Below are positions 39,759 through 54,464 of a stretch of DNA of 64,000 bases, in pieces (position 1 is the stretch's first letter; every line of letters begins with the position of its first letter). The stretch spans positions 273,997 to 337,996 of the forward strand of contig CAYYDR010000001.1 in NCBI GenBank assembly GCA_964470695.1. The letters are read 5' to 3'. Position numbers and translations under genes: made by a program. The notes under the pieces were generated by a model. That model was given only the letters and a program-made list of their open reading frames with translations, did not search any database and was not told where the DNA came from. The stretch comes from an uncultured Gammaproteobacteria bacterium (lineage in GTDB: Bacteria; Patescibacteriota; Patescibacteriia; Patescibacteriales; UBA12465).

Positions 39759-40241
39759 ATGGGAATTGTTAAAATCATGTCTAAATATCTTATTAAAATT
39801 GTGGCGAGTCCGCTTATTGCTTTAATTTTTTTACTGGGCAGTAATTTTTGTTGGCAGAATATATTAAATCCGGTTGTTACGCAGGGGGAACCTTTGACCC
39901 AGACCAAAGCTTCGGCTGTGGTTAGTTATAATAATTATAATAGCCTGGCTGTTGAAATAGATTATTGTAACGAAGGGCGGGGTGATACTTCTAGTACTGA
40001 TTTTTTTCTATTATCTTTGGCCGCTTCTCATCATAATACTATTTTACCCTGTTGTTTAAATGAGGGGCAGCCTAATGCTGTTGCCTTCACACAATCTTTA
40101 GAAATAAATAAGTCGGCTCCAGCCATACTTTTTTTTAGTCAGCAATTATTAAAAATTGTTCCCGCAATATCTTCTTATCATATTCCTATTATAGCGCCGC
40201 CGAAGTTACTAGCGGTTCAGACTACTATTCTTCGTCTATAG
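39759..40241 (+). CDS. Secreted Cys/His-containing hypothetical protein, first gene of the copper operon
   Basis: 160 aa (alternative start ATG 39777, MSKYLIKIV...). Signal-like hydrophobic N-terminus. Contains SHHNTILPCC and other Cys residues. The overlapping minus-strand ORF 39656-39907 is rejected. Confidence 0.55.
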   Translation: MGIVKIMSKYLIKIVASPLIALIFLLGSNFCWQNILNPVVTQGEPLTQTKASAVVSYNNYNSLAVEIDYCNEGRGDTSSTDFFLLSLAASHHNTILPCCLNEGQPNAVAFTQSLEINKSAPAILFFSQQLLKIVPAISSYHIPIIAPPKLLAVQTTILRL

Positions 40242-40305
40242 ATAGAATTATTAGTTGGCAAATGTTTGTTAAGAGTTTTTGCTCAAATTAATAATAATTC
40301 TATTT

Positions 40306-42183
40306 ATGTCTCATAATAAATATCTAAAACTACCTATTAAGGGCATGCACTGCGCTTCTTGTGAATTGCTTGTAGAAGAAAAGCTTAAGGAGGTTCCGCA
40401 TGTTCAATCGGTAGAAGTAAATCATAAGACTGGTGAGGCTATCATATATCATGACTATGCTGTGCCCTCTATGGCTCATCTTGATAAAGCAATTAAGGAC
40501 TCCGGCTATTCAATCGGCGAGTCAGATAAGTTGCCTCTTTTAACGCGCGACAGAAAAGAATACGCCAGCCTGGGGGTCGCCTTTCTATTTTTAATGGCCG
40601 CTTATTTGGTTTTCAAGGGACTGGGTTTAACCGATATTAGTATTGCTACCGATCTCAGCAGCCCAAGCTGGGGTTTAATTATAATAATTGGGTTGGTTGC
40701 GGGGTTCTCTACTTGTATGGCTCTGGTGGGCGGGTTATCCTTGGGACTCTCTACTAAATTTGCCGAGAGCCACCCTACCGCGACGCCGACGGAAAAATTT
40801 AGACCTCATATTTATTTCGTAATTGGCCGCATCTTATCTTATGCTACTTTAGGCGGAGTTTTAGGCGCTTTAGGCACGATATTTCAACTCTCTTCTGCCG
40901 CCAACGCTGCCTTAACTATACTAATAGGAATTGTTATGCTTATTATGGGTTTGCAGCTCATTAATATTTTTCCTCGTTTGAATAAATTTAAATTGGCTAT
41001 ACCTAAAGGAATTGCTAAAGCCCTAGGAATTAGCCAGAAAAATAAGGAGTATAGTCCGGAGCGGGCTATGCTCATGGGGGCTTTAACTTTTTTCTTGCCT
41101 TGCGGATTTACACAGGCCATGCAACTTTACGCGATTAGTAGCGGCAATTTCGCGTTTGGCATGATGGTAATGGGCCTGTTTGCCCTAGGAACCGCTCCTG
41201 GTTTATTAAGTGTCGGCGGCGTTACTTCTTTAGTCCGTGGTCAATTTAAGGAGCGATTTTTTAAAGTCGCCGGCCTAGCGGTTATATTTTTTGCTTTGTT
41301 TAATTTAAATAATGGCTACACTTTAGCCAGTTTAAGTGTGGTGGGGTTGACTGGTAGTAATTTTGGTTCTGAAAAAGTTATTAATGATCCAAACGTAATT
41401 ATGGAGAATGGGATACAGATAGTACGCATGATAGAGAGTAACCGAGGCTATACGCCTAATAAATTTTCAATTAAAAAAGATGTTCCGGTTAAATGGATAA
41501 TTGATGCTCAGGCGCCATATTCTTGTGCTAGTTCCATTGTTGTTCCTGGCTTGAATATTCAGAAGAGTTTAGAGGCAGGAGAAAATATAATTGAATTTAT
41601 TCCTAAGGAAGTGGGGAAATTAGCATTCTCTTGTTCTATGGGTATGTATACAGGAGTCTTTAATGTTTATGATGAAAATGATTCAGTGGGTAATGGCTCA
41701 GTAACGTCAGATAGTAATGACGCTAGCCCAATCGTTAAAAGTCCTAAAGGAACTTGTGGTTCTGGGGGCGGCGGAGGAGGCGGTTGTGGCGGAGGGGGAA
41801 GTGCTGGTGGTGGTTGCGGCGGAGGAGGAGGCGGAGGTTGTGGTGGTTGCGGAGGGGGCGCTAAAATTAAAACAAACACAGTTGATACGCCCGCTGATAA
41901 TCAAGGTGGCGTTCAGGTTATTAAAACCAGTTATACCCAGTCCGCCGATATTCAGCCTAATAGTTTTACGGTTAAAGCCGGTAAGCCAGTTCGCTTTGAA
42001 ATAGAAGCCAAGGAAGATGGTGCTGGCTGTATGGGCGCGATTGAGGTTCAGACTTTATCGGAAGGGCCGCAAGATTTAGTGGCCGGCAAAACCATTGTTA
42101 TGGAATTTATACCTACGACGCCCGGTAGTTATCTAATTACATGTGCCATGGGCATGCCGCGGGGGACTATAAAAGTGCAATAA
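40306..42183 (+). CDS. HMA domain + CcdA/DsbD_2-like transmembrane domain + two cupredoxin-like domains separated by a Gly/Cys tract; possible membrane copper-tolerance protein
   Basis: Start at ATG 40306 (MSHNKYLKLPIKGMHCASCE = HMA MxCxxC). TM core with GFSTCMALVGG and FFLPCGFTQAMQ. First C-terminal domain carries YSCAS...FSCSMGMY. Then GTCGSGGGGGGGCGGGGSAGGGCGGGGGGGCGGCGGG. The second domain carries GCMG...ITCAMGM. Confidence 0.75.
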   Translation: MSHNKYLKLPIKGMHCASCELLVEEKLKEVPHVQSVEVNHKTGEAIIYHDYAVPSMAHLDKAIKDSGYSIGESDKLPLLTRDRKEYASLGVAFLFLMAAYLVFKGLGLTDISIATDLSSPSWGLIIIIGLVAGFSTCMALVGGLSLGLSTKFAESHPTATPTEKFRPHIYFVIGRILSYATLGGVLGALGTIFQLSSAANAALTILIGIVMLIMGLQLINIFPRLNKFKLAIPKGIAKALGISQKNKEYSPERAMLMGALTFFLPCGFTQAMQLYAISSGNFAFGMMVMGLFALGTAPGLLSVGGVTSLVRGQFKERFFKVAGLAVIFFALFNLNNGYTLASLSVVGLTGSNFGSEKVINDPNVIMENGIQIVRMIESNRGYTPNKFSIKKDVPVKWIIDAQAPYSCASSIVVPGLNIQKSLEAGENIIEFIPKEVGKLAFSCSMGMYTGVFNVYDENDSVGNGSVTSDSNDASPIVKSPKGTCGSGGGGGGGCGGGGSAGGGCGGGGGGGCGGCGGGAKIKTNTVDTPADNQGGVQVIKTSYTQSADIQPNSFTVKAGKPVRFEIEAKEDGAGCMGAIEVQTLSEGPQDLVAGKTIVMEFIPTTPGSYLITCAMGMPRGTIKVQ

Positions 42184-42201: not shown

Positions 42202-42408
42202 ATGAATAATATTAATTTTAAGTTAGCTGGCTTAACTTGTGAAGCTTGTCTTAAATTAGTCTCGCGGAAGTTAAAAAAAATTCCCGGCGTGACAAGCGTG
42301 AAAGTTGATTTAGCGTCTGGTGAAACCCAAGTTACTAGTTCGGGCAAAATCGATTTAGAGATTTTGCGAAAAAGCTTAGAGAATACGCATTATTCAATAG
42401 TTAAATAA
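42202..42408 (+). CDS. copZ: Copper chaperone (single HMA domain)
   Basis: 68 aa. LTCEAC metal-binding motif in a ferredoxin-like HMA fold pattern. Lies between the membrane protein and copA. Confidence 0.8.
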
Positions 42409-42412
42409 TTAT

Positions 42413-45400
42413 ATGAGCCAAAAAATAAAATTGAAAATAGAGGGCATGCATTGCTCATCTTGCGAAACAATTATTAAGGAGGAGGTGTCTGAGTTACCGG
42501 GAGTTAGCGACATTTCCGTTAGTTCTAAAACTGGCACAGCGGAATTGGTTTTAGACGAGTCAAAAAACAATACGGAGGATATTCTTAAGGCAGTTAAAGA
42601 AGCTGGTTATGAGGCGATTGTTCAGTCGGACGTATCTTTAGAGGGCAAAAAAAATATGGAGATTAGACAGCCAGAAATTATTATCTCCGGCAGTCAAGCT
42701 CGGGGCAGCGAACCTTTGAAAATTCAATTGGAAATTAAAGTTTCAGTTGATAGTGGTCACAACAGCGCACAGGCCGTAAAGGACAATAAACTAATGACGG
42801 TTATTGAAGGTGATAGTTTTATTCAAAACACTAGTCAGGCGGCCGACACAAATTTGAGTCAGAATAATAATTTAAGTCAAAATTCCAACCAACGAACTAA
42901 TTTGTCCCTTTTTGGCATGCACTGCTCATCGTGCGCTAATATTATTGAGCGGTCTCTTAAGAAAGTCCCAGGCGTCAAACTGGCTAATGTTAATTTTGCT
43001 GCTGAAAAAGCGTCGGTTATATATGATGAATCTCAAGTTAAGACTCAAAGTTTAATTGAAGCTATTTCTAAAGCTGGCTATAAAGCGGAAGTGGTGGATC
43101 CCAAGGATACCGACTATGATAGAAAGAAGCGGGAAAAAGAAACTAAATCGTACTTTGGAAAGTTTTGGTTTAGTTTTGTTCTTAGTTTACCAATGCTTTA
43201 TTTCATGCTTCTAGATTTTTTTGCTATTCCAGGCAAAGCTTTAGTTCTGCCATTTGTCGGTGTTATTTCACTGGTTCTAACTGCGCCGATTCAGTTCTTT
43301 ATTGGAGCGGGGTTTTATAAGGGTTTTTGGTCATCACTAAAAATGAAAACCTTTAATATGGATAGCCTGATCGCGATTGGCACTTCAACTGCTTTCATTT
43401 ATAGTTTAGTTAATTTTATAAATTACTTTATAAAAACTAAATCAGTTATTGGCTTAAGTGGTAAAATTCCGGAATTATATTTTGAAACAGCTGCTTTCTT
43501 AATTACTTTTGTAATTTTAGGAAAATGGCTGGAGATTCGCACTAAAGGGAAGACGGGTGACGCTATTAAAAAGTTAATGGGACTACAGGCAAAAACCGCT
43601 CGCATTATCAGAAACGGCTCAGTTATTGATATCCCGGTTGATGAAGTGGTCCGTGGCGACGTTGTTATTGTCCGCCCCGGAGAGAAAATTCCGGTTGATG
43701 GAAAAATAACGAAAGGGTCGTCAGCGATTGATGAATCAATGATTACCGGCGAGAGCTTGCCGGTTGAAAAAAAAGTTGGCGATTTAGTAATTGGCAGTAC
43801 CGTTAACAAAACCGGTAGTTTTGAGTTTGAGGCAACCAGGGTAGGTAATGAAACAGCTTTAGCGCAAATTATCCGTTTAGTAGAAGATGCGCAAGGGTCA
43901 AAGGCGCCGATTCAGGGGTTTGCGGATAAGATTTCGGCGGTCTTTGTGCCGACCGTTATTGGCATTGCCATTATTACTTTCTTGATTTGGTATTTTTTAC
44001 TAGGAGCAACATTATCTTTCGCTTTAATGGCTTTCACGGCCGTCATTGTTATCGCTTGTCCCTGCGCTTTAGGGCTAGCTACGCCAACGGCACTTATGGT
44101 TGGCACTGGCAAAGGGGCGGAATATGGAATTTTAGTAAAAGGGGGCGAGCCGCTGGAAGCAGCTTGCCATATTAATGCGGTTGTTTTTGATAAGACCGGC
44201 ACCCTTACTAAAGGTAAGCCGGAAGTAACTGATATTATTCCTTTTGCGAGTTTAGATGAAGATGAGATATTAGAGATATCCGCTAGTTTAGAAAAATTAT
44301 CCGAGCATCCGTTAGCAGAAGCGATTTATACTTACGCCAATGAAGAGTCTATTAGTCTAAAGGAAGCGAAAAATTTTTCCGCCATCCCCGGTCATGGCGT
44401 TAAAGGAATAATAAATGATATAGAATATTATTTTGGTAATCGCCGTTTAATGGCCGAAGTACTTAATCATTCAATTGATAAAATTAATCGCAAGTTGGCT
44501 AAATTAGAAGAACAGGGGAAGACAACAATGATTTTGGCGACTAAAGATGAAATATTGGGTGCTATTGCGGTAGCGGACACAGTTAAGCCAACTTCGTCGG
44601 ATGCGGTCGCTAAATTAAAGAAGCTAGGCGTCGCAGTTTATATGATAACCGGTGATAATGAACGAACGGCCCGCGCTATTGCGGTTCAGGTGGGAATTGA
44701 AAATGTTTTAGCGGAAGTTTTGCCGGAGGATAAGGCTAACGAAGTGAAAAAGTTGCAGCAGAATAATTATAAGGTAGCGATGGTTGGCGATGGTATTAAT
44801 GACGCCCCGGCTTTAGCGCAAGCTGATTTAGGTATTGCCATGGGTTCTGGTACTGACGTGGCCATGGAAACCGGCGGCATCGTTATTATGAAAAATGATT
44901 TGAGCGATGTGGTAACTGCCCTGCAATTATCACGTGAGACTATGAGCAAGATAAAACAGAATATGTTTTTTGCTTTATTCTATAATGTCATTGGCATTCC
45001 GATTGCCGCCCGTATTTTTACTAAATATGGTTTAGTGCTAAAGCCGGAATTGGCCGGATTAGCGATGGCCTTTAGTTCAATTTCGGTCGTTGGCAATTCT
45101 TTGCTCTTACGCTACTTTAAGCCGAATAAGAGAAATTATTTATCATTAATTGCTCCGGTCATTATGGTTTTAGTTTTCACTTTTGGTTTCTTTGAGTTTG
45201 CTAAATTAAGTTCGGGCATGGAAAACCAGGACATGAATGTGGTTGTCTCTGTGGAAAGTGCCTCAACTATTAACACCTTTATAGCCAACGGCGAAACTAA
45301 GATTAATTTTGGCGATGGAGATCCTAAATTATTTTTAGGCGCCGACAGCTTGCCGGGCTTACTAAAAATTAGTGAGGGAGTTTTGACCCTTGGTAATGAT

Positions 45401-45910
45401 GAGATGATAATCGGTTATGATGAGGCAATGATGATGAAAAAGGAAAATTTGATTAAGGGACCGGGCGATAGTTTAACTAACTTCTTTGGTCTACCGAGTG
45501 TAAAAATAGTTGGCATTTTAGAGCCAACTGGGACTTTGGTTGATAATTATCACTTTGTTAATAAGAATACTCTTGTTAAGATGACTAGCGCTGCCCTAGT
45601 TAGATATGTAGCTGAGAAAGAAATTATTAAGAGTTTCTACTTTGACACAGCCACTAATACCCCCGATAAATTAAAGAACGATATTAAAGACTTTGATCAA
45701 ATTAATTTAGGTGATAAGAAATACCTGCCGATTTATATTGGTTTTAGTGAAGCTAAAATGATGATAGAGGCCAAGTTAATTAGTAAAGTTGGTGATACTA
45801 TTGATAATTTTTTTGGTAATAATGTAATGATAGCGGGAATTTTACCTGAAACAAAAACAACCTTAGATATGATGCATTATGTAGGGCCAGATTTTGTTGT
45901 AAAAAACTAG
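42413..45910 (+). CDS. copA: Copper-translocating P1B-type ATPase with two N-terminal HMA domains and a approximately 260-aa C-terminal extension
   Basis: 1165 aa. GMHCSSC twice, [35 protein letters not shown]. After the usual last TM (...LLRYFKP) comes one extra TM ([21 protein letters not shown]) and a approximately 235-aa domain with an internal duplication. Confidence 0.9.
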
Positions 45911-51803: not shown

Positions 51804-53192
51804 TTATTTTTCTTCTATTACCTTAATATTGCCAGTATACATGCCCATAGAGCAAGAGAAGGGAATATCACCTATTGTGCTAGGAGTAAATTCAATAATA
51901 TTTTCCCCCTTCTTCATAAACTTTTGGATTTTTAGAGAAGGAACAATAAGGGCGCTAGCGCAAGAATAGGGGGCTTGTGCATCAATAACCCAGCGAACCG
52001 GCCGCCCTTTAATAACTGTGAATTGATTTGGGGAATAACCGCGATTTGTTTCAATCATATTGATTATTTGGACCCTATTATTTTCTAAATCAGAATTATT
52101 TTTATTTGTCTGTTCATCCAAACTAGAATTATTTTCGGTAACCAATATTCCGCCCGTTGTTAGACTTATTAATTTAAAACCGTTCTGTAAATTAAATATA
52201 GCGAAAAGGATAACAATCCCGCCGGCTAGCTTAAAGAACCAGCGAGATTTTTTCTGGCTGACCAGAGAAACTATGCCGCCTATTCCTAATAAGCCAGGCA
52301 GAGTACCGATCGCGAAAAGAGCCATAGTCAGGCCGCCGTTTATAAAGCTGCCGCTATTTAAAGCATATATTTGCATGGCTTGAGTAAAGCCGCAGGGCAG
52401 GAAAAAAGTTAGAGCTCCGAGAATAATCGGGTTATTAGCTTTTATTTTTCCGCCTAATTTTTTTGGCAGAGAAAAATCTAATTTATTCAGAGCTGAAGAG
52501 ACATCTAAAAGTTTTAGTCCTAATATTAAGACAACTAATCCGACCACGACAGTCAGGATGCCATTAAAGAAAGATGATAGCTTAAAAGTCTGTCCGGCTA
52601 GACCTAAGACGCCGCCTAAGACGAAAAAACCTAAGACACGGCCCAGATTAAATAAAAGGTGGGGCTGAAATTTTTGAAAACGACTGGCTTCGGGATGATC
52701 TTTGGCGTAGCTCGCTGATAAGCTAAAGACTAGGCCTCCGACTAAGGCCAGGCAGGTTGAGAAGCCGGCTACTAGTCCGACTAAGGCCGCTAGTGATAAT
52801 GAGAACTCTCCTTTTAGCAATCCGCTAGCGTCGCCTAAAGGCAATTTTCCTATTAACCAGTAAGCTAAAATCAGGGAGAGAATGATGAGCGGCCAGTTAG
52901 CTTTTTTATTTTGAGATGGTAAATCACAATCAGGGGTGCCATTTAATTTTACCCCTTCTTCGTTTTCAGAATTCTTTATTTCGCCTTTAAATTTATAGCC
53001 GCCGTCTTCTATGGCTTGCTTAATTATTGCTAAATTTGGTTTGTCGCCTCGGTAAGATATTTCCGCTACTCCGTCGCGATGGTTAACGTTGACTGAAGTG
53101 ATATTAGGTAACTCGCCTAAATTTTGTTCATTTAATATTTCGCAAGCCTTGCAATGTAGGCCGCCGATGCGGACACTAATTTTTTTTGTCAT
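51804..53192 (-). CDS. HMA domain + CcdA/DsbD_2-like transmembrane domain + one cupredoxin-like domain (paralogue of 40306-42183)
   Basis: 462 aa from ATG 53192 (MTKKISVRIGGLHCKACE); the track start at 53204 is an alternative. Same GFSTCLALVGG, FFLPCGFTQAMQ and YSCAS...FSCSMGMY motifs as the paralogue. Confidence 0.75.
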   Translation of the reverse strand: MTKKISVRIGGLHCKACEILNEQNLGELPNITSVNVNHRDGVAEISYRGDKPNLAIIKQAIEDGGYKFKGEIKNSENEEGVKLNGTPDCDLPSQNKKANWPLIILSLILAYWLIGKLPLGDASGLLKGEFSLSLAALVGLVAGFSTCLALVGGLVFSLSASYAKDHPEASRFQKFQPHLLFNLGRVLGFFVLGGVLGLAGQTFKLSSFFNGILTVVVGLVVLILGLKLLDVSSALNKLDFSLPKKLGGKIKANNPIILGALTFFLPCGFTQAMQIYALNSGSFINGGLTMALFAIGTLPGLLGIGGIVSLVSQKKSRWFFKLAGGIVILFAIFNLQNGFKLISLTTGGILVTENNSSLDEQTNKNNSDLENNRVQIINMIETNRGYSPNQFTVIKGRPVRWVIDAQAPYSCASALIVPSLKIQKFMKKGENIIEFTPSTIGDIPFSCSMGMYTGNIKVIEEK

Positions 53193-53254
53193 ATATAAAA
53201 GCAACTTACCGGATTAGCATTAATCTAGTTTTGCCGCTGATAATTTTTGTAATT

Positions 53255-53527
53255 TTATTTAGAGGCTAACTTATTTACTTTTAATATTTCATCAACCATG
53301 CGCGCCTTGAGTTTTTCGTTCTTGGAGGCCATAGCATTTTTAAAACAGCTATTAAGATGACCAGCTAAGAGCATTTGGTGGGCTGATTTAAGGAGACCGA
53401 TAACAGCAAGGTTCTGCTGCATAATATCAATGCAGTATTCACCTTCTTCGGTCATTTGGATTATTTTTTCGGTTAAACTCTTGGCCTTTTTAAGATTAGT
53501 CAGGATGTCTTGTTTGTCTCTAGTCAT
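53255..53527 (-). CDS. csoR: CsoR/RcnR-family metal-sensing transcriptional repressor
   Basis: 90 aa. Helical DUF156-type pattern with candidate ligand residues C (EGEYCIDIMQQ), H (SAHQML) and C (HLNSCF) in the x-C-H-C arrangement. Confidence 0.8.
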   Translation of the reverse strand: MTRDKQDILTNLKKAKSLTEKIIQMTEEGEYCIDIMQQNLAVIGLLKSAHQMLLAGHLNSCFKNAMASKNEKLKARMVDEILKVNKLASK

Positions 53528-53714: not shown

Positions 53715-54464
53715 ATGTCTCTTTATCTTTATATTTTCGGTAGTGTTTTTTTAGTTTCCATCCTATCTCTTTTAGGAGTTCTTTTTTTGTCTTTTTCTAA
53801 AGAATGGCTCCAAAAAATTATTTTTTTATTAGTCAGTGTTTCGGCCGGAGCTTTGATTGGCGACGCCTTTCTTCATTTATTGCCGGAAATGGCGCGCGAT
53901 AGTCAGGATGGAATAGGCGCTTGGCTTTGGGTGATAGGGGGCTTGATGGTATTTTTTGTCTTAGAAAAAATTATCCATTGGCGCCATTGCCATATTACGA
54001 CTGGCCCCGATCATCCCCATCCTCTAGGCATTATGAATTTAGTTGGCGATGCCTTGCATAATTTTTTTGATGGCGTGATTATCGCTGGTTCCTTTGTGGT
54101 CAGTATTCCTCTAGGCATTTCCACTTTGGTGGCCGTAGTGGCTCATGAGATTCCGCATGAAATTGGTAATTTCGGGATTTTAGTTTATGCGGGCTATTCC
54201 AGAGGTAGGGCCATACTTTTAAATTTTCTTTCCGCCTTAGTGGCGATGCTCGGCGCTTTGGCAGCGGTTGTTTTTGCGGCTAGCCTAACTAATTTTACAA
54301 ATTTTATTATTCCGTTTACCGCCGGCGGCTTTATTTATATCGCGACGGCCGATCTAATTCCCGAGATGAAGAAAGAGACCGGAGCGGGCAAATCAATTTT
54401 GCAGCTACTCTGTATATTAATTGGTATCGCCATTATGCTCGCCTTAAGATATATTTTTGAATAG
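53715..54464 (+). CDS. zupT: ZIP-family divalent metal transporter (ZupT-like)
   Basis: 249 aa. HEIPHEIGNF signature in TM5 region and a His-rich loop (HWRHCHITTGPDHPHP). Confidence 0.85.
   Translation: MSLYLYIFGSVFLVSILSLLGVLFLSFSKEWLQKIIFLLVSVSAGALIGDAFLHLLPEMARDSQDGIGAWLWVIGGLMVFFVLEKIIHWRHCHITTGPDHPHPLGIMNLVGDALHNFFDGVIIAGSFVVSIPLGISTLVAVVAHEIPHEIGNFGILVYAGYSRGRAILLNFLSALVAMLGALAAVVFAASLTNFTNFIIPFTAGGFIYIATADLIPEMKKETGAGKSILQLLCILIGIAIMLALRYIFE

What the first reader, a model, noticed from the sequence alone, without database searches (positions are those of the whole stretch)
45121..45907. CopA carries an extra TM helix and a approximately 235-aa C-terminal tandem-repeat domain
Canonical P1B ATPases end shortly after the last TM (here ...SLLLRYFKP). 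This protein continues with a hydrophobic helix ([21 protein letters not shown]), which would place the remainder outside the cell. That remainder contains two related units of about 60 aa: [51 protein letters not shown] and [50 protein letters not shown]. The pattern (...A..l....GD.i..f.g....v.GIl...) is reminiscent of the periplasmic core domains of MacB/FtsX-type ABC permeases. An extracytoplasmic domain fused to a copper pump could hand off Cu(I) or dock a partner such as the cupredoxin protein.
Basis: partly seen in the sequence, partly recalled or inferred. Interest (0 to 1): 0.55.

Follow-up and report, generated by a model that had tools for sequence, protein, structure and literature searches.

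The report
Copper pump with fused outside domain
A copper-exporting pump (CopA) in a candidate-phyla-radiation bacterium carries a ninth membrane helix and a 235-residue domain outside the cell, from an unnamed family that is either fused to or encoded next to copper pumps and so is probably a dedicated outer accessory of the pump.

Summary
ORF 42413-45910 encodes a complete Cu(I) P1B-1 ATPase (aa 1-~905). It continues in frame through a basic loop, a ninth TM helix (aa 910-930) and a 235-aa ectodomain.

The fusion is not a frameshift. About 32 of 41 related loci in species-representative genomes have the same single 1000-1230-aa ORF with a conserved junction.

The repeat is real and longer than reported: two ~100-aa units (profile-profile E=5e-31).

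The MacB/FtsX hunch holds at fold level and weakly at profile level. It fails formal membership: there is no FtsX domain and no Pfam-threshold hit.

The domain belongs to a small unnamed family: 202 cluster representatives among 1.84 billion proteins, with no Pfam or NCBIfam model. In all six archaeal-source loci examined (two of the six proteins named by source: Woesearchaeota, Altiarchaeota), plus one standalone locus found in the genome scan, it is a separate N-anchored membrane protein whose gene abuts or overlaps copA. Cupredoxin-domain genes accompany it nearly everywhere.

Each unit keeps a near-invariant Glu/Met/Thr/Asp/His set, and loss of Met and loss of His are coupled.

Best reading: a tethered accessory ectodomain, analogous to a P-type ATPase beta subunit, at the pump's exit side, probably handling exported Cu(I). 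The function is inferred, not shown.

The parts
42413..45910 (+). Whole gene: CopA with fused ectodomain, 1165 aa plus stop codon
   Evidence: Single ORF. Pfam finds HMA x2, E1-E2_ATPase and Hydrolase; NCBIfam TIGR01511 scores 630 bits against a cutoff of 397.
42413..45121 (+). Canonical Cu(I) P1B-1 ATPase core (aa 1-903): two CxxC HMA domains, TGE445, CPC549, DKTGT593, GDGIND792, YNxxxxP857, MxxSS885
   Evidence: Motifs located. Solved CopA structures align only up to aa 905 or earlier.
45110..45139 (+). Basic cytoplasmic loop [10 protein letters not shown] (aa 900-909) between M6 and the extra helix
   Evidence: Read directly from the sequence. The junction motif N[SA]LLL[KR]xF[KR]Pxx[KR]N is conserved in 30 fused ORFs.
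45140..45202 (+). Ninth transmembrane helix [21 protein letters not shown] (aa 910-930)
   Evidence: Kyte-Doolittle peak of 2.27. AlphaFold models a long helix. The sequence is strongly conserved across the fusions (AP..M...F.F.F.[EQ]FA). It aligns with the N-terminal anchor of the standalone homologues.
45203..45289 (+). Flexible Met-containing linker ([12 protein letters not shown]...) followed by a short helix (aa 931-959)
   Evidence: pLDDT below 50 for ECD residues 1-11, then a helix at residues 18-30.
45290..45583 (+). Ectodomain unit 1 (aa 960-1057), alpha/beta. Conserved residues: E1004 (45422-45424), M1008 (45434-45436), T1039, D1044 (45542-45544), H1047 (45551-45553)
   Evidence: AlphaFold pLDDT above 90. 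Conservation of 94-99% across 188 distinct ectodomains. Unit 1 against unit 2 by hhalign gives E=5e-31.
45584..45907 (+). Ectodomain unit 2 (aa 1058-1165). Conserved residues: E1113 (45749-45751), M1117 (45761-45763), T1147, D1152 (45866-45868), H1155 (45875-45877)
   Evidence: hhalign against the MacB ectodomain gives P=5e-5. The sub-threshold Pfam MacB_PCD hits in relatives map to this unit.
42202..42408 (+). CopZ-type HMA copper chaperone gene immediately upstream
   Evidence: Pfam HMA, 45.8 bits. Found as a separate gene directly upstream of the fused copA in about 13 of the related loci; other CopZ matches there fall on CopA's own HMA domains.
40279..42183 (+). HMA - DsbD_2 membrane domain - two cupredoxin domains (634 aa). 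Candidate extracytoplasmic partner
   Evidence: Pfam. Syntenic with the fused copA in nearly all bacterial loci, and cupredoxin-domain genes are present in all archaeal-source loci examined.
39759..40241 (+). Conserved 160-aa membrane or secreted ORF at the head of the cluster, no known family
   Evidence: No Pfam hit. tblastn finds homologues at the same position in 8 related loci.

Best explanation
The tail is a built-in extracytoplasmic accessory module of a Cu(I)-exporting P1B-1 ATPase.

Shown:
- After the last canonical helix (M6), a basic cytoplasmic loop and a conserved ninth TM helix carry the chain back across the membrane.
- There it forms a compact domain of two tandem ~100-aa alpha/beta units. 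Their fold, and faintly their sequence, are related to the C-terminal half of MacB-type (type VII ABC) periplasmic domains.
- In the archaeal-source loci examined the same domain is a separate N-anchored, type-II-like membrane protein. Its gene abuts or overlaps copA.

Inferred:
- The bacterial form arose by fusing copA to this adjacent partner gene. The partner's anchor helix became TM9.
- TM9 packs against the pump, and the ectodomain sits over the pump's outer face. This is the position a beta subunit occupies on other P-type ATPases.
- Each unit offers a Met-His centred site (E1004/M1008/D1044/H1047 and E1113/M1117/D1152/H1155) that transiently accepts Cu(I) leaving the exit pathway.
- The copper is then kept from re-entering, and is released or passed on to the cupredoxin domains of the co-encoded HMA-DsbD_2-cupredoxin protein.
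For: - Fusion is conserved: about 32 of 41 loci from species-representative genomes have a single 1000-1230-aa ORF with DKTGT, CPC, GDGxND and the tail. The junction and TM9 are highly conserved.
- Gene adjacency in the standalone form: in 6 of 6 archaeal-source loci looked up, plus standalone locus L045, the gene lies beside copA; in five of the six it abuts or overlaps copA (overlaps of 4, 1 and 16 nt in L050, L053, L055), in L004 a small HMA gene intervenes and in L045 it lies about 0.6 kb downstream.
- Restricted architecture: an exhaustive profile search finds only 202 cluster representatives. Of the ten longer hits scanned, seven show only CopA domains and three have no Pfam hit; of the latter, two read as CopA C-terminal fragments and one as a standalone protein with a low-complexity tail.
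- Location outside the cell: positive-inside loop, TM9, and independent N-terminal anchors in the standalone forms.
- Confident fold: pLDDT 91-93, pTM 0.79-0.87. The top Foldseek hits are all MacB, LolC/E, YbbP or HrtB ectodomains. Sub-threshold Pfam and hhalign results agree.
- Candidate ligands: Glu, Met, Thr, Asp and His are 92-100% conserved in both units across 188 ectodomains.
- Coupled pair: 8 of 9 units lacking Met also lack His (Fisher p=2e-10). In the hhalign alignment to MacB these positions pair with hydrophobic residues (L, V), so they are a family-specific substitution.
- Copper context: the cluster also holds CopZ and cupredoxin genes, with CsoR or MarR-type regulators in relatives.
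- Precedents: CopA hands Cu(I) to the docked periplasmic chaperone CusF, whose site is His plus two Met (PMC7558416). In S. aureus, the surface-anchored tandem-domain CopL, with His/Met clusters, is co-encoded with a copper ATPase (PMC5947656).
Against: - No copper-binding or transport data exist for any family member.
- Model coordinates could not be inspected, so the proximity of Met, His, Glu and Asp in space is inferred only from secondary-structure position and covariation.
- Rare natural substitutions are hydrophobic (Met to Leu/Ile/Val; His to Tyr/Ile/Val/Ala). That also fits a buried packing pair rather than a metal site.
- The Fisher test is not corrected for phylogeny.
- There are no conserved Cys residues and no classical Met-rich motif.
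- Contact between the ectodomain or TM9 and the pump was not modelled.
- Single-unit variants exist (L044, L047, P0219), so two sites are not essential.
Confidence: 0.45

Rival explanations
1. Purely structural or regulatory subunit. The TM9-ectodomain module stabilises, folds or tunes the E1/E2 equilibrium of the pump, as beta or CDC50 subunits do for P2C and P4 ATPases. It never binds copper, and the conserved Met-His-Glu-Asp set is a buried structural cluster.
For: - Obligate pairing with copA, either as a fusion or as an overlapping gene.
- A strongly conserved TM helix suggests specific helix packing.
- Natural replacements of Met and His are hydrophobic and co-occur, as expected for a packing pair.
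- The equivalent MacB positions are hydrophobic core residues.
Against: Core positions rarely stay 95-97% Met or His across sequences only 26-75% identical. The great majority of CopA pumps work without such a subunit (established knowledge; solved structures). The constant association with extracytoplasmic cupredoxin genes points to metal handling outside the cell.
Confidence: 0.25
2. Docking platform. Like the ectodomains of FtsX, LolC or YbbP, which recruit EnvC, LolA or TesA, the domain binds a partner protein and positions it at the pump. The partner is most likely the cupredoxin domains of the neighbouring HMA-DsbD_2-cupredoxin protein. The domain itself does not bind metal.
For: MacB-type fold relationship. 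Type VII ABC ectodomains commonly act as partner-binding modules (PMC5985334, PMC12646458). There is near-universal synteny with cupredoxin-domain genes.
Against: No interaction evidence exists. In some archaeal loci the cupredoxin gene is several kb away or on a separate small protein (L053). The conserved polar and thioether residues are left unexplained.
Confidence: 0.17
3. Extracellular copper sensor. The ectodomain binds external Cu and gates or activates the pump through TM9.
For: Conserved His, Asp, Glu and Met residues could bind Cu(II) or Cu(I). The direct covalent link to M6 through TM9 could transmit a signal.
Against: P1B pumps are driven by cytoplasmic substrate delivered by CopZ and the HMA domains. 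The cluster already contains cytoplasmic regulators (CsoR or MarR-type). No precedent is known.
Confidence: 0.08
4. Artefact. The tail is a separate gene joined to copA by a sequencing or assembly frameshift in this window.
For: One relative (L006, GW2011_GWC2_38_7) has copA broken into pieces of 501, 251 and 229 aa, with the tail in another frame. Many database entries start inside or just after TM9.
Against: The same continuous ORF occurs in about 32 independent genomes at 40-77% tail identity, with a conserved junction. Further full-length fusions appear in the exhaustive search (P0154, P0159, P0169, P0175, P0176, P0184, P0186). The short entries come from contigs of 1-2 kb or from internal Met starts.
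Confidence: 0.01

Closest known systems
Periplasmic domains of type VII ABC transporters (MacB, LolC/LolE, YbbP, HrtB, FtsX; Pfam MacB_PCD PF12704)
   Same: This is the only fold family recovered by Foldseek. Both units share the motif '..vviG..eA..m....GD.i..ffg..v.vvGil..t....D...fv' with the C-terminal half of MacB_PCD. Both are extracytoplasmic and attached to an ATP-driven membrane machine.
   Different: There is no FtsX four-helix permease domain and no ABC ATPase. The domain hangs from one TM helix instead of being inserted between TM1 and TM2. It is built as a tandem duplication of one ~100-aa unit rather than a Porter-plus-Sabre arrangement. No member reaches the Pfam threshold. Foldseek TM-scores are only 0.25-0.33.
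CusF-type periplasmic Cu(I) chaperone docking on CopA (E. coli)
   Same: It is an extracytoplasmic acceptor positioned at the exit of a Cu(I) P1B ATPase, with His and Met as metal ligands (PMC7558416).
   Different: CusF is a soluble OB-fold protein of a diderm periplasm. It is not fused, not membrane-anchored and has an unrelated fold. Copper binding by the present domain is unproven.
CopL (tandem DUF1541 surface lipoprotein encoded with the P1B-3 ATPase CopX/CopB in Staphylococcus aureus)
   Same: In a single-membrane organism, a surface-anchored protein made of two tandem domains with conserved His/Met clusters is co-encoded with a copper ATPase (PMC5947656).
   Different: There is no DUF1541 signal in the tail or in its relatives. 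CopL has a lipid anchor rather than a TM helix and is never fused to the pump. The fold is different.
Single-pass ectodomain subunits of other P-type ATPases (Na,K/H,K-ATPase beta; CDC50 of P4 flippases)
   Same: The standalone form has the same topology (N-in, one TM, large ectodomain) and the same obligate pairing with one P-type pump. This comparison rests on established knowledge of those families.
   Different: There is no sequence or fold relationship (no Pfam hit). To my knowledge no such subunit has been described for P1B ATPases. Here it is covalently fused in bacteria.
Canonical CopA / P1B-1 ATPases (A. fulgidus, L. pneumophila, E. coli)
   Same: The core aa 1-905 is an ordinary member with all signature motifs.
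   Different: Canonical members end within about 6 residues of M6, in the cytoplasm. This one has 260 further residues, a ninth TM helix and an external C-terminus.

Membership tests
P1B-1 Cu(I)/Ag(I) P-type ATPase (CopA) | Family HMM above curated cutoff | tested here: met
   TIGR01511 scores 630 bits (cutoff 397) and TIGR01525 scores 666 bits (cutoff 346).
P1B-1 Cu(I)/Ag(I) P-type ATPase (CopA) | Catalytic and metal-site motifs: DKTGT, TGE, GDGxND, CPC in M4, YN(x4)P in M5, MxxSS in M6, N-terminal CxxC HMA domains | tested here: met
   All are present at aa 593, 445, 792, 549, 857, 885 and 14/171.
P1B-1 Cu(I)/Ag(I) P-type ATPase (CopA) | Eight TM helices with a short cytoplasmic C-terminus | tested here: not met
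   A ninth helix and a 235-aa external tail follow M6. This is an architectural variant, not an exclusion from the family.
MacB_PCD / type VII ABC ectodomain (PF12704) | Pfam hit at or above the gathering score (27 bits) | tested here: not met
   The window tail gives no hit at E<=10. The best relative scores 20 bits, and 7 of 38 members give sub-threshold hits.
MacB_PCD / type VII ABC ectodomain (PF12704) | Structural similarity to solved MacB, LolC/E or FtsX-family ectodomains | tested here: met
   The top 14-18 Foldseek PDB hits are all from this family, with probability 0.8-1.0 and E 3e-3 to 0.1. TM-scores are only 0.25-0.33, covering about one unit.
MacB_PCD / type VII ABC ectodomain (PF12704) | Profile-profile homology | tested here: inconclusive
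   hhalign against the MacB ectodomain: unit 2 P=5e-5 (probability 67%), unit 1 P=0.004, whole ectodomain P=0.016. Reversed-template controls give P=0.14-0.36.
MacB/FtsX-type permease | Ectodomain inserted between TM1 and TM2 of a four-helix FtsX domain (PF02687) that works with an ABC ATPase | tested here: not met
   There is no FtsX hit. The domain has a single anchor helix and is fused to a P-type ATPase.
CopL / DUF1541 | DUF1541 Pfam domain | tested here: not met
   DUF1541 does not appear among the hits for the tail or for the 38 relatives at E<=10.
CusF-like Cu(I) chaperone | OB-fold with a His-Met-Met(-Trp) site | tested here: not met
   The fold is alpha/beta and MacB-like, and no CusF structure appears among the Foldseek hits. 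Metal binding itself cannot be tested with these tools.
P-type ATPase beta/CDC50-type subunit | Sequence family membership (Na_K-ATPase beta, CDC50 Pfam families) | tested here: not met
   No Pfam hit. The analogy is in topology and genetic pairing only.
New family (CopA-associated tandem ectodomain) | Two-unit (rarely one-unit) ectodomain after one TM helix; E-A-x-x-M ... T-x-T-x-x-D-x-x-H signature in each unit; fused to or adjacent to copA | tested here: met
   plus the context.

The most novel reading that the evidence does not exclude
This would be the first dedicated extracytoplasmic subunit or ectodomain of a P1B-type metal pump. A MacB-type 'mechanotransmission' unit has been recruited by a P-type rather than an ABC motor. 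E1/E2 movements of M6 are passed through TM9 to a two-site Met-His Cu(I) relay, which actively strips copper from the exit and loads the co-encoded cupredoxin domains. That would form a complete outward copper-trafficking chain in single-membrane CPR bacteria and in the archaea that carry the standalone form.
Probability: 0.2. Interest if true: 0.8.

Novelty: new variant of a known kind. Interest (0 to 1): 0.6.

Why it matters
P1B copper pumps are regarded as self-sufficient eight-helix enzymes. How Cu(I) leaves their exit site is known only for diderm bacteria, where the acceptor is CusF.

Here a conserved ectodomain family with no database annotation is genetically locked to CopA in two domains of life, fused in CPR bacteria and gene-adjacent in archaeal-source contigs. 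It offers a concrete, testable candidate for the missing acceptor or cap on the outer side of the pump.

It also shows a MacB-type ectodomain unit outside the ABC transporter world. And it defines a small protein family (about 200 clusters) that currently carries only 'hypothetical protein' labels.

Tried and rejected
Searches that gave nothing:
- Pfam and NCBIfam scans of the tail found nothing usable.
- A profile search of PDB sequences gave only a spurious hit at E=0.11.
- The search for related loci with the diverse alignment A2 failed for lack of a conserved stretch. It worked with the closer alignment A3.
- Four literature searches found no description of a CopA with a ninth helix or an external C-terminal domain.

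Explanations rejected:
- Frameshift or assembly artefact: the ORF and its junction are conserved in about 32 genomes.
- A common ATPase C-terminal domain: solved structures and family models stop at aa ~905.
- Membership in DUF1541/CopL, CusF, or the beta/CDC50 families: no hits.
- Low-probability Foldseek hits to the p97/Cdc48 N domain (probability <=0.14, rmsd 16-18 A) were treated as noise.

Limits:
- A full-length pump-plus-tail model was not attempted, because no contact information would have been returned.
Full report
**What is at the site**

ORF 42413..45910 (+) is one uninterrupted reading frame of 1165 codons. Residues 1-~905 are an ordinary Cu(I) P1B-1 ATPase:
- Pfam finds two HMA domains, E1-E2_ATPase and the HAD hydrolase domain.
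- NCBIfam TIGR01511 (copper-translocating P-type ATPase) scores 630 bits against a cutoff of 397, and the CopA equivalog model aligns to aa 1-905.
- The signature motifs are all present: CxxC at 14 and 171, TGE445, CPC549, DKTGT593, GDGIND792, YNxxxxP857 and MxxSS885.
- Every solved P1B ATPase aligns only up to aa 892-906, and those chains end within a few residues of that point.

**The extra helix and topology**

After M6 comes a loop with four positive charges ([10 protein letters not shown], aa 900-909). It is followed by the most hydrophobic segment of the C-terminal third, [21 protein letters not shown] (aa 910-930). AlphaFold models this segment as a long continuous helix, and an acidic, Met-containing linker follows it. 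By the positive-inside rule the remaining 235 residues lie outside the cell.

There is independent support from relatives. Standalone relatives of the tail, including those from archaeal MAGs, begin with their own basic stretch and hydrophobic anchor (for example MTDVTEYFKKRKIALILTILVMLLGSALY...). In the alignments that anchor falls in the same columns as TM9.

**The repeat**

I built family profiles for the two halves of the ectodomain from 188 distinct sequences. These align over 95 columns with probability 99.9% and E=4.9e-31. The duplicated unit is therefore about 100 aa (aa 960-1057 and 1058-1165). Each unit is a set of beta strands followed by a strand-helix-strand-strand-short helix-strand element.

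**Not an artefact**

A search of 5.8 billion proteins with the tail returned 49 relatives, and 69 with a profile. Many are N-truncated pieces of CopA that run straight into the tail on short contigs. A scan of one genome per species gave 41 loci.
- About 32 contain a single ORF of 1000-1230 aa carrying DKTGT, CPC, GDGxND and the tail.
- The junction N[SA]LLL[KR]xF[KR]Pxx[KR]N and the TM9 sequence are highly conserved.
- The exhaustive profile search adds more full-length fusions: P0154, P0159, P0169, P0175, P0176, P0184 and P0186.
- One old assembly (L006) has copA broken into three pieces with the tail in another frame. Given everything else, that is most simply an error or decay in that record.

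**The family and its genetic company**

HMMER read 1.84 billion cluster representatives with the family profile and found only 202 with E<=1e-3, of which 120 have E<=1e-30. The hits take only three forms: CopA fusions, fragments, or standalone proteins of about 245-280 aa. No member has a Pfam or NCBIfam assignment. The source names that exist are 'hypothetical protein' or 'soluble P-type ATPase/HAD hydrolase'.

I looked up six standalone genes on metagenome contigs and archaeal MAGs (the two carrying a source name are Woesearchaeota and Altiarchaeota). All six lie directly beside copA:
- Downstream of copA in L001, L050, L052 and L055.
- Upstream of copA in L004 and L053.
- With overlaps of 4, 1 and 16 nt in L050, L053 and L055, which suggests translational coupling.

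L045 shows a similar arrangement, with the gene about 0.6 kb downstream of copA.

In the bacterial loci the order [160-aa ORF] - HMA/DsbD_2/cupredoxin - [CopZ] - copA::tail is nearly universal. The archaeal-source clusters also hold HMA chaperones, HMA-membrane proteins, Cupredoxin_1 proteins, DsbA-like and FtrD-like proteins, and MarR/DUF7343-type regulators.

The simplest history is fusion of copA with an adjacent downstream partner gene. The partner's signal-anchor would then have become TM9. This step is an inference.

Variants exist with only one unit (L044, L047 and P0219). One protein has a further C-terminal domain rich in HxHP motifs (P0198).

**Fold**

Two AlphaFold models were made.
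- The tail including TM9 (29-sequence alignment): pLDDT 91.1, pTM 0.79.
- The ectodomain alone (38-sequence alignment): pLDDT 93.1, pTM 0.87.

Foldseek against the PDB gave the same answer both times. The top 14-18 hits are all periplasmic domains of type VII ABC transporters: YbbP, MacB from three species, LolE, LolC, HrtB and the P. gingivalis permease domain 3is6. E-values run from 3e-3 to about 0.1 and probabilities from 0.8 to 1.0. The best superpositions cover about 100-115 residues at 4.6-4.9 A. TM-scores are only 0.25-0.33. After these come only low-probability p97 N-domain matches.

Sequence evidence agrees but is weak.
- MacB_PCD is the commonest sub-threshold Pfam hit: 7 of 38 members, 12.8-20 bits against a cutoff of 27. 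The hit always pairs unit 2 with profile positions ~102-177 of 207.
- hhalign against a 116-sequence MacB ectodomain alignment gives P=5e-5 for unit 2, P=0.004 for unit 1 and P=0.016 for the whole domain. Both units map to the same C-terminal half of the MacB ectodomain.
- Reversed-template controls give P=0.14-0.36.

The protein is still not a MacB/FtsX family member. It has no FtsX domain, hangs from a single helix, reaches no family threshold, and has a different domain construction. MacB ectodomains are a Porter subdomain split around a Sabre subdomain (PMC5985334).

**Conserved residues**

Across 188 distinct ectodomains the conservation per unit is as follows.

| Position | Unit 1 | Unit 2 |
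|---|---|---|
| Glu | E1004, 94% | E1113, 94% |
| Met | M1008, 97% | M1117, 96% |
| Thr | T1039, 97% | T1147, 94% |
| Asp | D1044, 99% | D1152, 100% |
| His | H1047, 95% | H1155, 92% |

Several glycines are also conserved. Glu and Met are one helical turn apart (EAxxM). Asp and His lie in the short helix and strand that follow the GIL strand.

In the hhalign alignment to MacB, the Met and His positions pair with hydrophobic residues (L and V). The Met-His pair is therefore a family-specific replacement.

Loss of the two residues is coupled. Of 9 units lacking Met, 8 also lack His, whereas 13 of 362 units with Met lack His (Fisher p=2e-10, not corrected for phylogeny). This fits a joint Met-His site, as in Cu(I) proteins such as CusF (PMC7558416) or the His/Met clusters proposed for CopL (PMC5947656). 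It equally fits a packing pair, because the replacements are hydrophobic.

**How it most likely works**

Shown:
- It is a conserved, extracytoplasmic, membrane-tethered two-unit domain.
- It occurs only with copA, in a cluster that also holds CopZ and cupredoxin genes, with CsoR or MarR-type regulators in relatives.

Inferred:
- TM9 packs on the pump.
- The ectodomain caps the outer face.
- The Met-His sites transiently take Cu(I) leaving the exit pathway, and release it or pass it to the cupredoxin domains encoded two genes upstream.

Precedent exists for CopA delivering Cu(I) to a docked extracytoplasmic acceptor rather than to solvent (PMC7558416), and for a surface-anchored tandem-domain protein co-encoded with a copper ATPase in a single-membrane bacterium (PMC5947656).

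The rivals are a purely structural beta-subunit-like role, a metal-free docking platform for the cupredoxin protein, and an external copper sensor. None is excluded by the data here.

**Novelty and verdict**

I found no description of this architecture or this domain family in Pfam, NCBIfam, the PDB or the searchable literature. The pump itself is ordinary. The fused or adjacent ectodomain is a new variant of a known kind of system.

The record titles that name a taxon are mostly Patescibacteria/CPR (Parcubacteria, Paceibacteria, Falkowbacteria, Magasanikbacteria, Moraniibacteria, Doudnabacteria, Peribacteria, Saccharibacteria, SR1) and Altiarchaeota or Woesearchaeota; about a third of the genome-scan titles instead carry Proteobacteria-type labels. 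Those labels (Gammaproteobacteria, Bdellovibrionales, Acidobacteriota, Lysobacterales) on third-party or bulk-binned assemblies could not be verified. The phyletic restriction is therefore stated with reserve.

Interest is moderate to fairly high. The finding is a concrete, testable candidate for an outer accessory or acceptor of a P1B pump, and an example of a MacB-type unit outside ABC transporters. Its function remains inferred.

Noticed in passing
window 51804-53527 (-), 53715-54464 (+): There is a second, shorter HMA-DsbD_2-cupredoxin paralogue (466 aa, 45% identical to the one beside copA). A CsoR-type metal-sensing repressor gene (53255-53527) lies directly upstream of it, and the pair is divergent from a ZIP-family metal transporter gene. 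The likely copper regulator of the window therefore sits about 7 kb from copA, next to the paralogue.
   Followed up: partly
window 41749-41862 (+), inside gene 40279-42183: A 38-residue Gly/Cys-rich low-complexity linker (GTCGSGGGGGGGCGGGGSAGGGCGGGGGGGCGGCGGGA) lies between the two cupredoxin domains of the HMA-DsbD_2-cupredoxin protein. It could be a thiolate-rich metal-binding or flexible tether. The overlapping antisense and out-of-frame ORFs listed there are by-products of the G-rich repeat.
   Followed up: no
window 39759-40241 (+): A 160-aa ORF with an N-terminal hydrophobic segment and several Cys residues has no Pfam family. It is conserved at the same position (head of the cluster) in 8 related loci: L010, L011, L017, L020, L024, L031, L042 and partly L017. 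In other relatives an FtrD-like protein (PF10080) of similar size sits in the cluster.
   Followed up: partly
L044 3013-6351; L047 3136-6324; protein P0219: Natural single-unit variants exist: a full CopA plus TM9 plus only one ~100-aa unit (the unit-2 type), and a standalone one-unit protein. The unit therefore behaves as an independent module.
   Followed up: partly
protein P0198 (638 aa, N-truncated): This protein has a CopA C-terminus, TM9 and a two-unit ectodomain, plus a further ~260-aa C-terminal domain containing HEHP and HTHP motifs and no Pfam hit. It may be an additional metal-binding module. His of unit 2 is replaced by Ala here.
   Followed up: no
L017 and L023 (both from assembly CAZEEW01): One metagenome-assembled genome carries two paralogous copA::ectodomain loci on different contigs.
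   Followed up: no
L006 5192-8690 (GW2011_GWC2_38_7): copA is split into called genes of 501, 251 and 229 aa, with a ~600-nt uncalled gap and a frame change inside TM9. This is probably an assembly error or a pseudogene, and it explains why the database holds a 229-aa 'standalone' bacterial entry (P0008).
   Followed up: partly
L045 5659-6609 (record titled Acidobacteriota MAG); P0057 (titled Lysobacterales); many TPA_asm loci titled Gammaproteobacteria or Bdellovibrionales: The taxon labels are at odds with the otherwise CPR-like or archaeal-type sequence and synteny. L045 has the archaeal-type standalone arrangement. Possible causes are mis-binning, placeholder taxonomy or horizontal transfer; this was not resolved.
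   Followed up: no
L001, L052, L055 and other archaeal-source loci: The archaeal-source copper clusters repeatedly combine HMA chaperone, HMA-DsbD-type membrane protein, DsbA-like thioredoxin, FtrD-like protein, Cupredoxin_1 protein and a DUF7343/MarR-type regulator with copA and the ectodomain gene. This suggests a larger conserved extracytoplasmic copper-handling module.
   Followed up: partly
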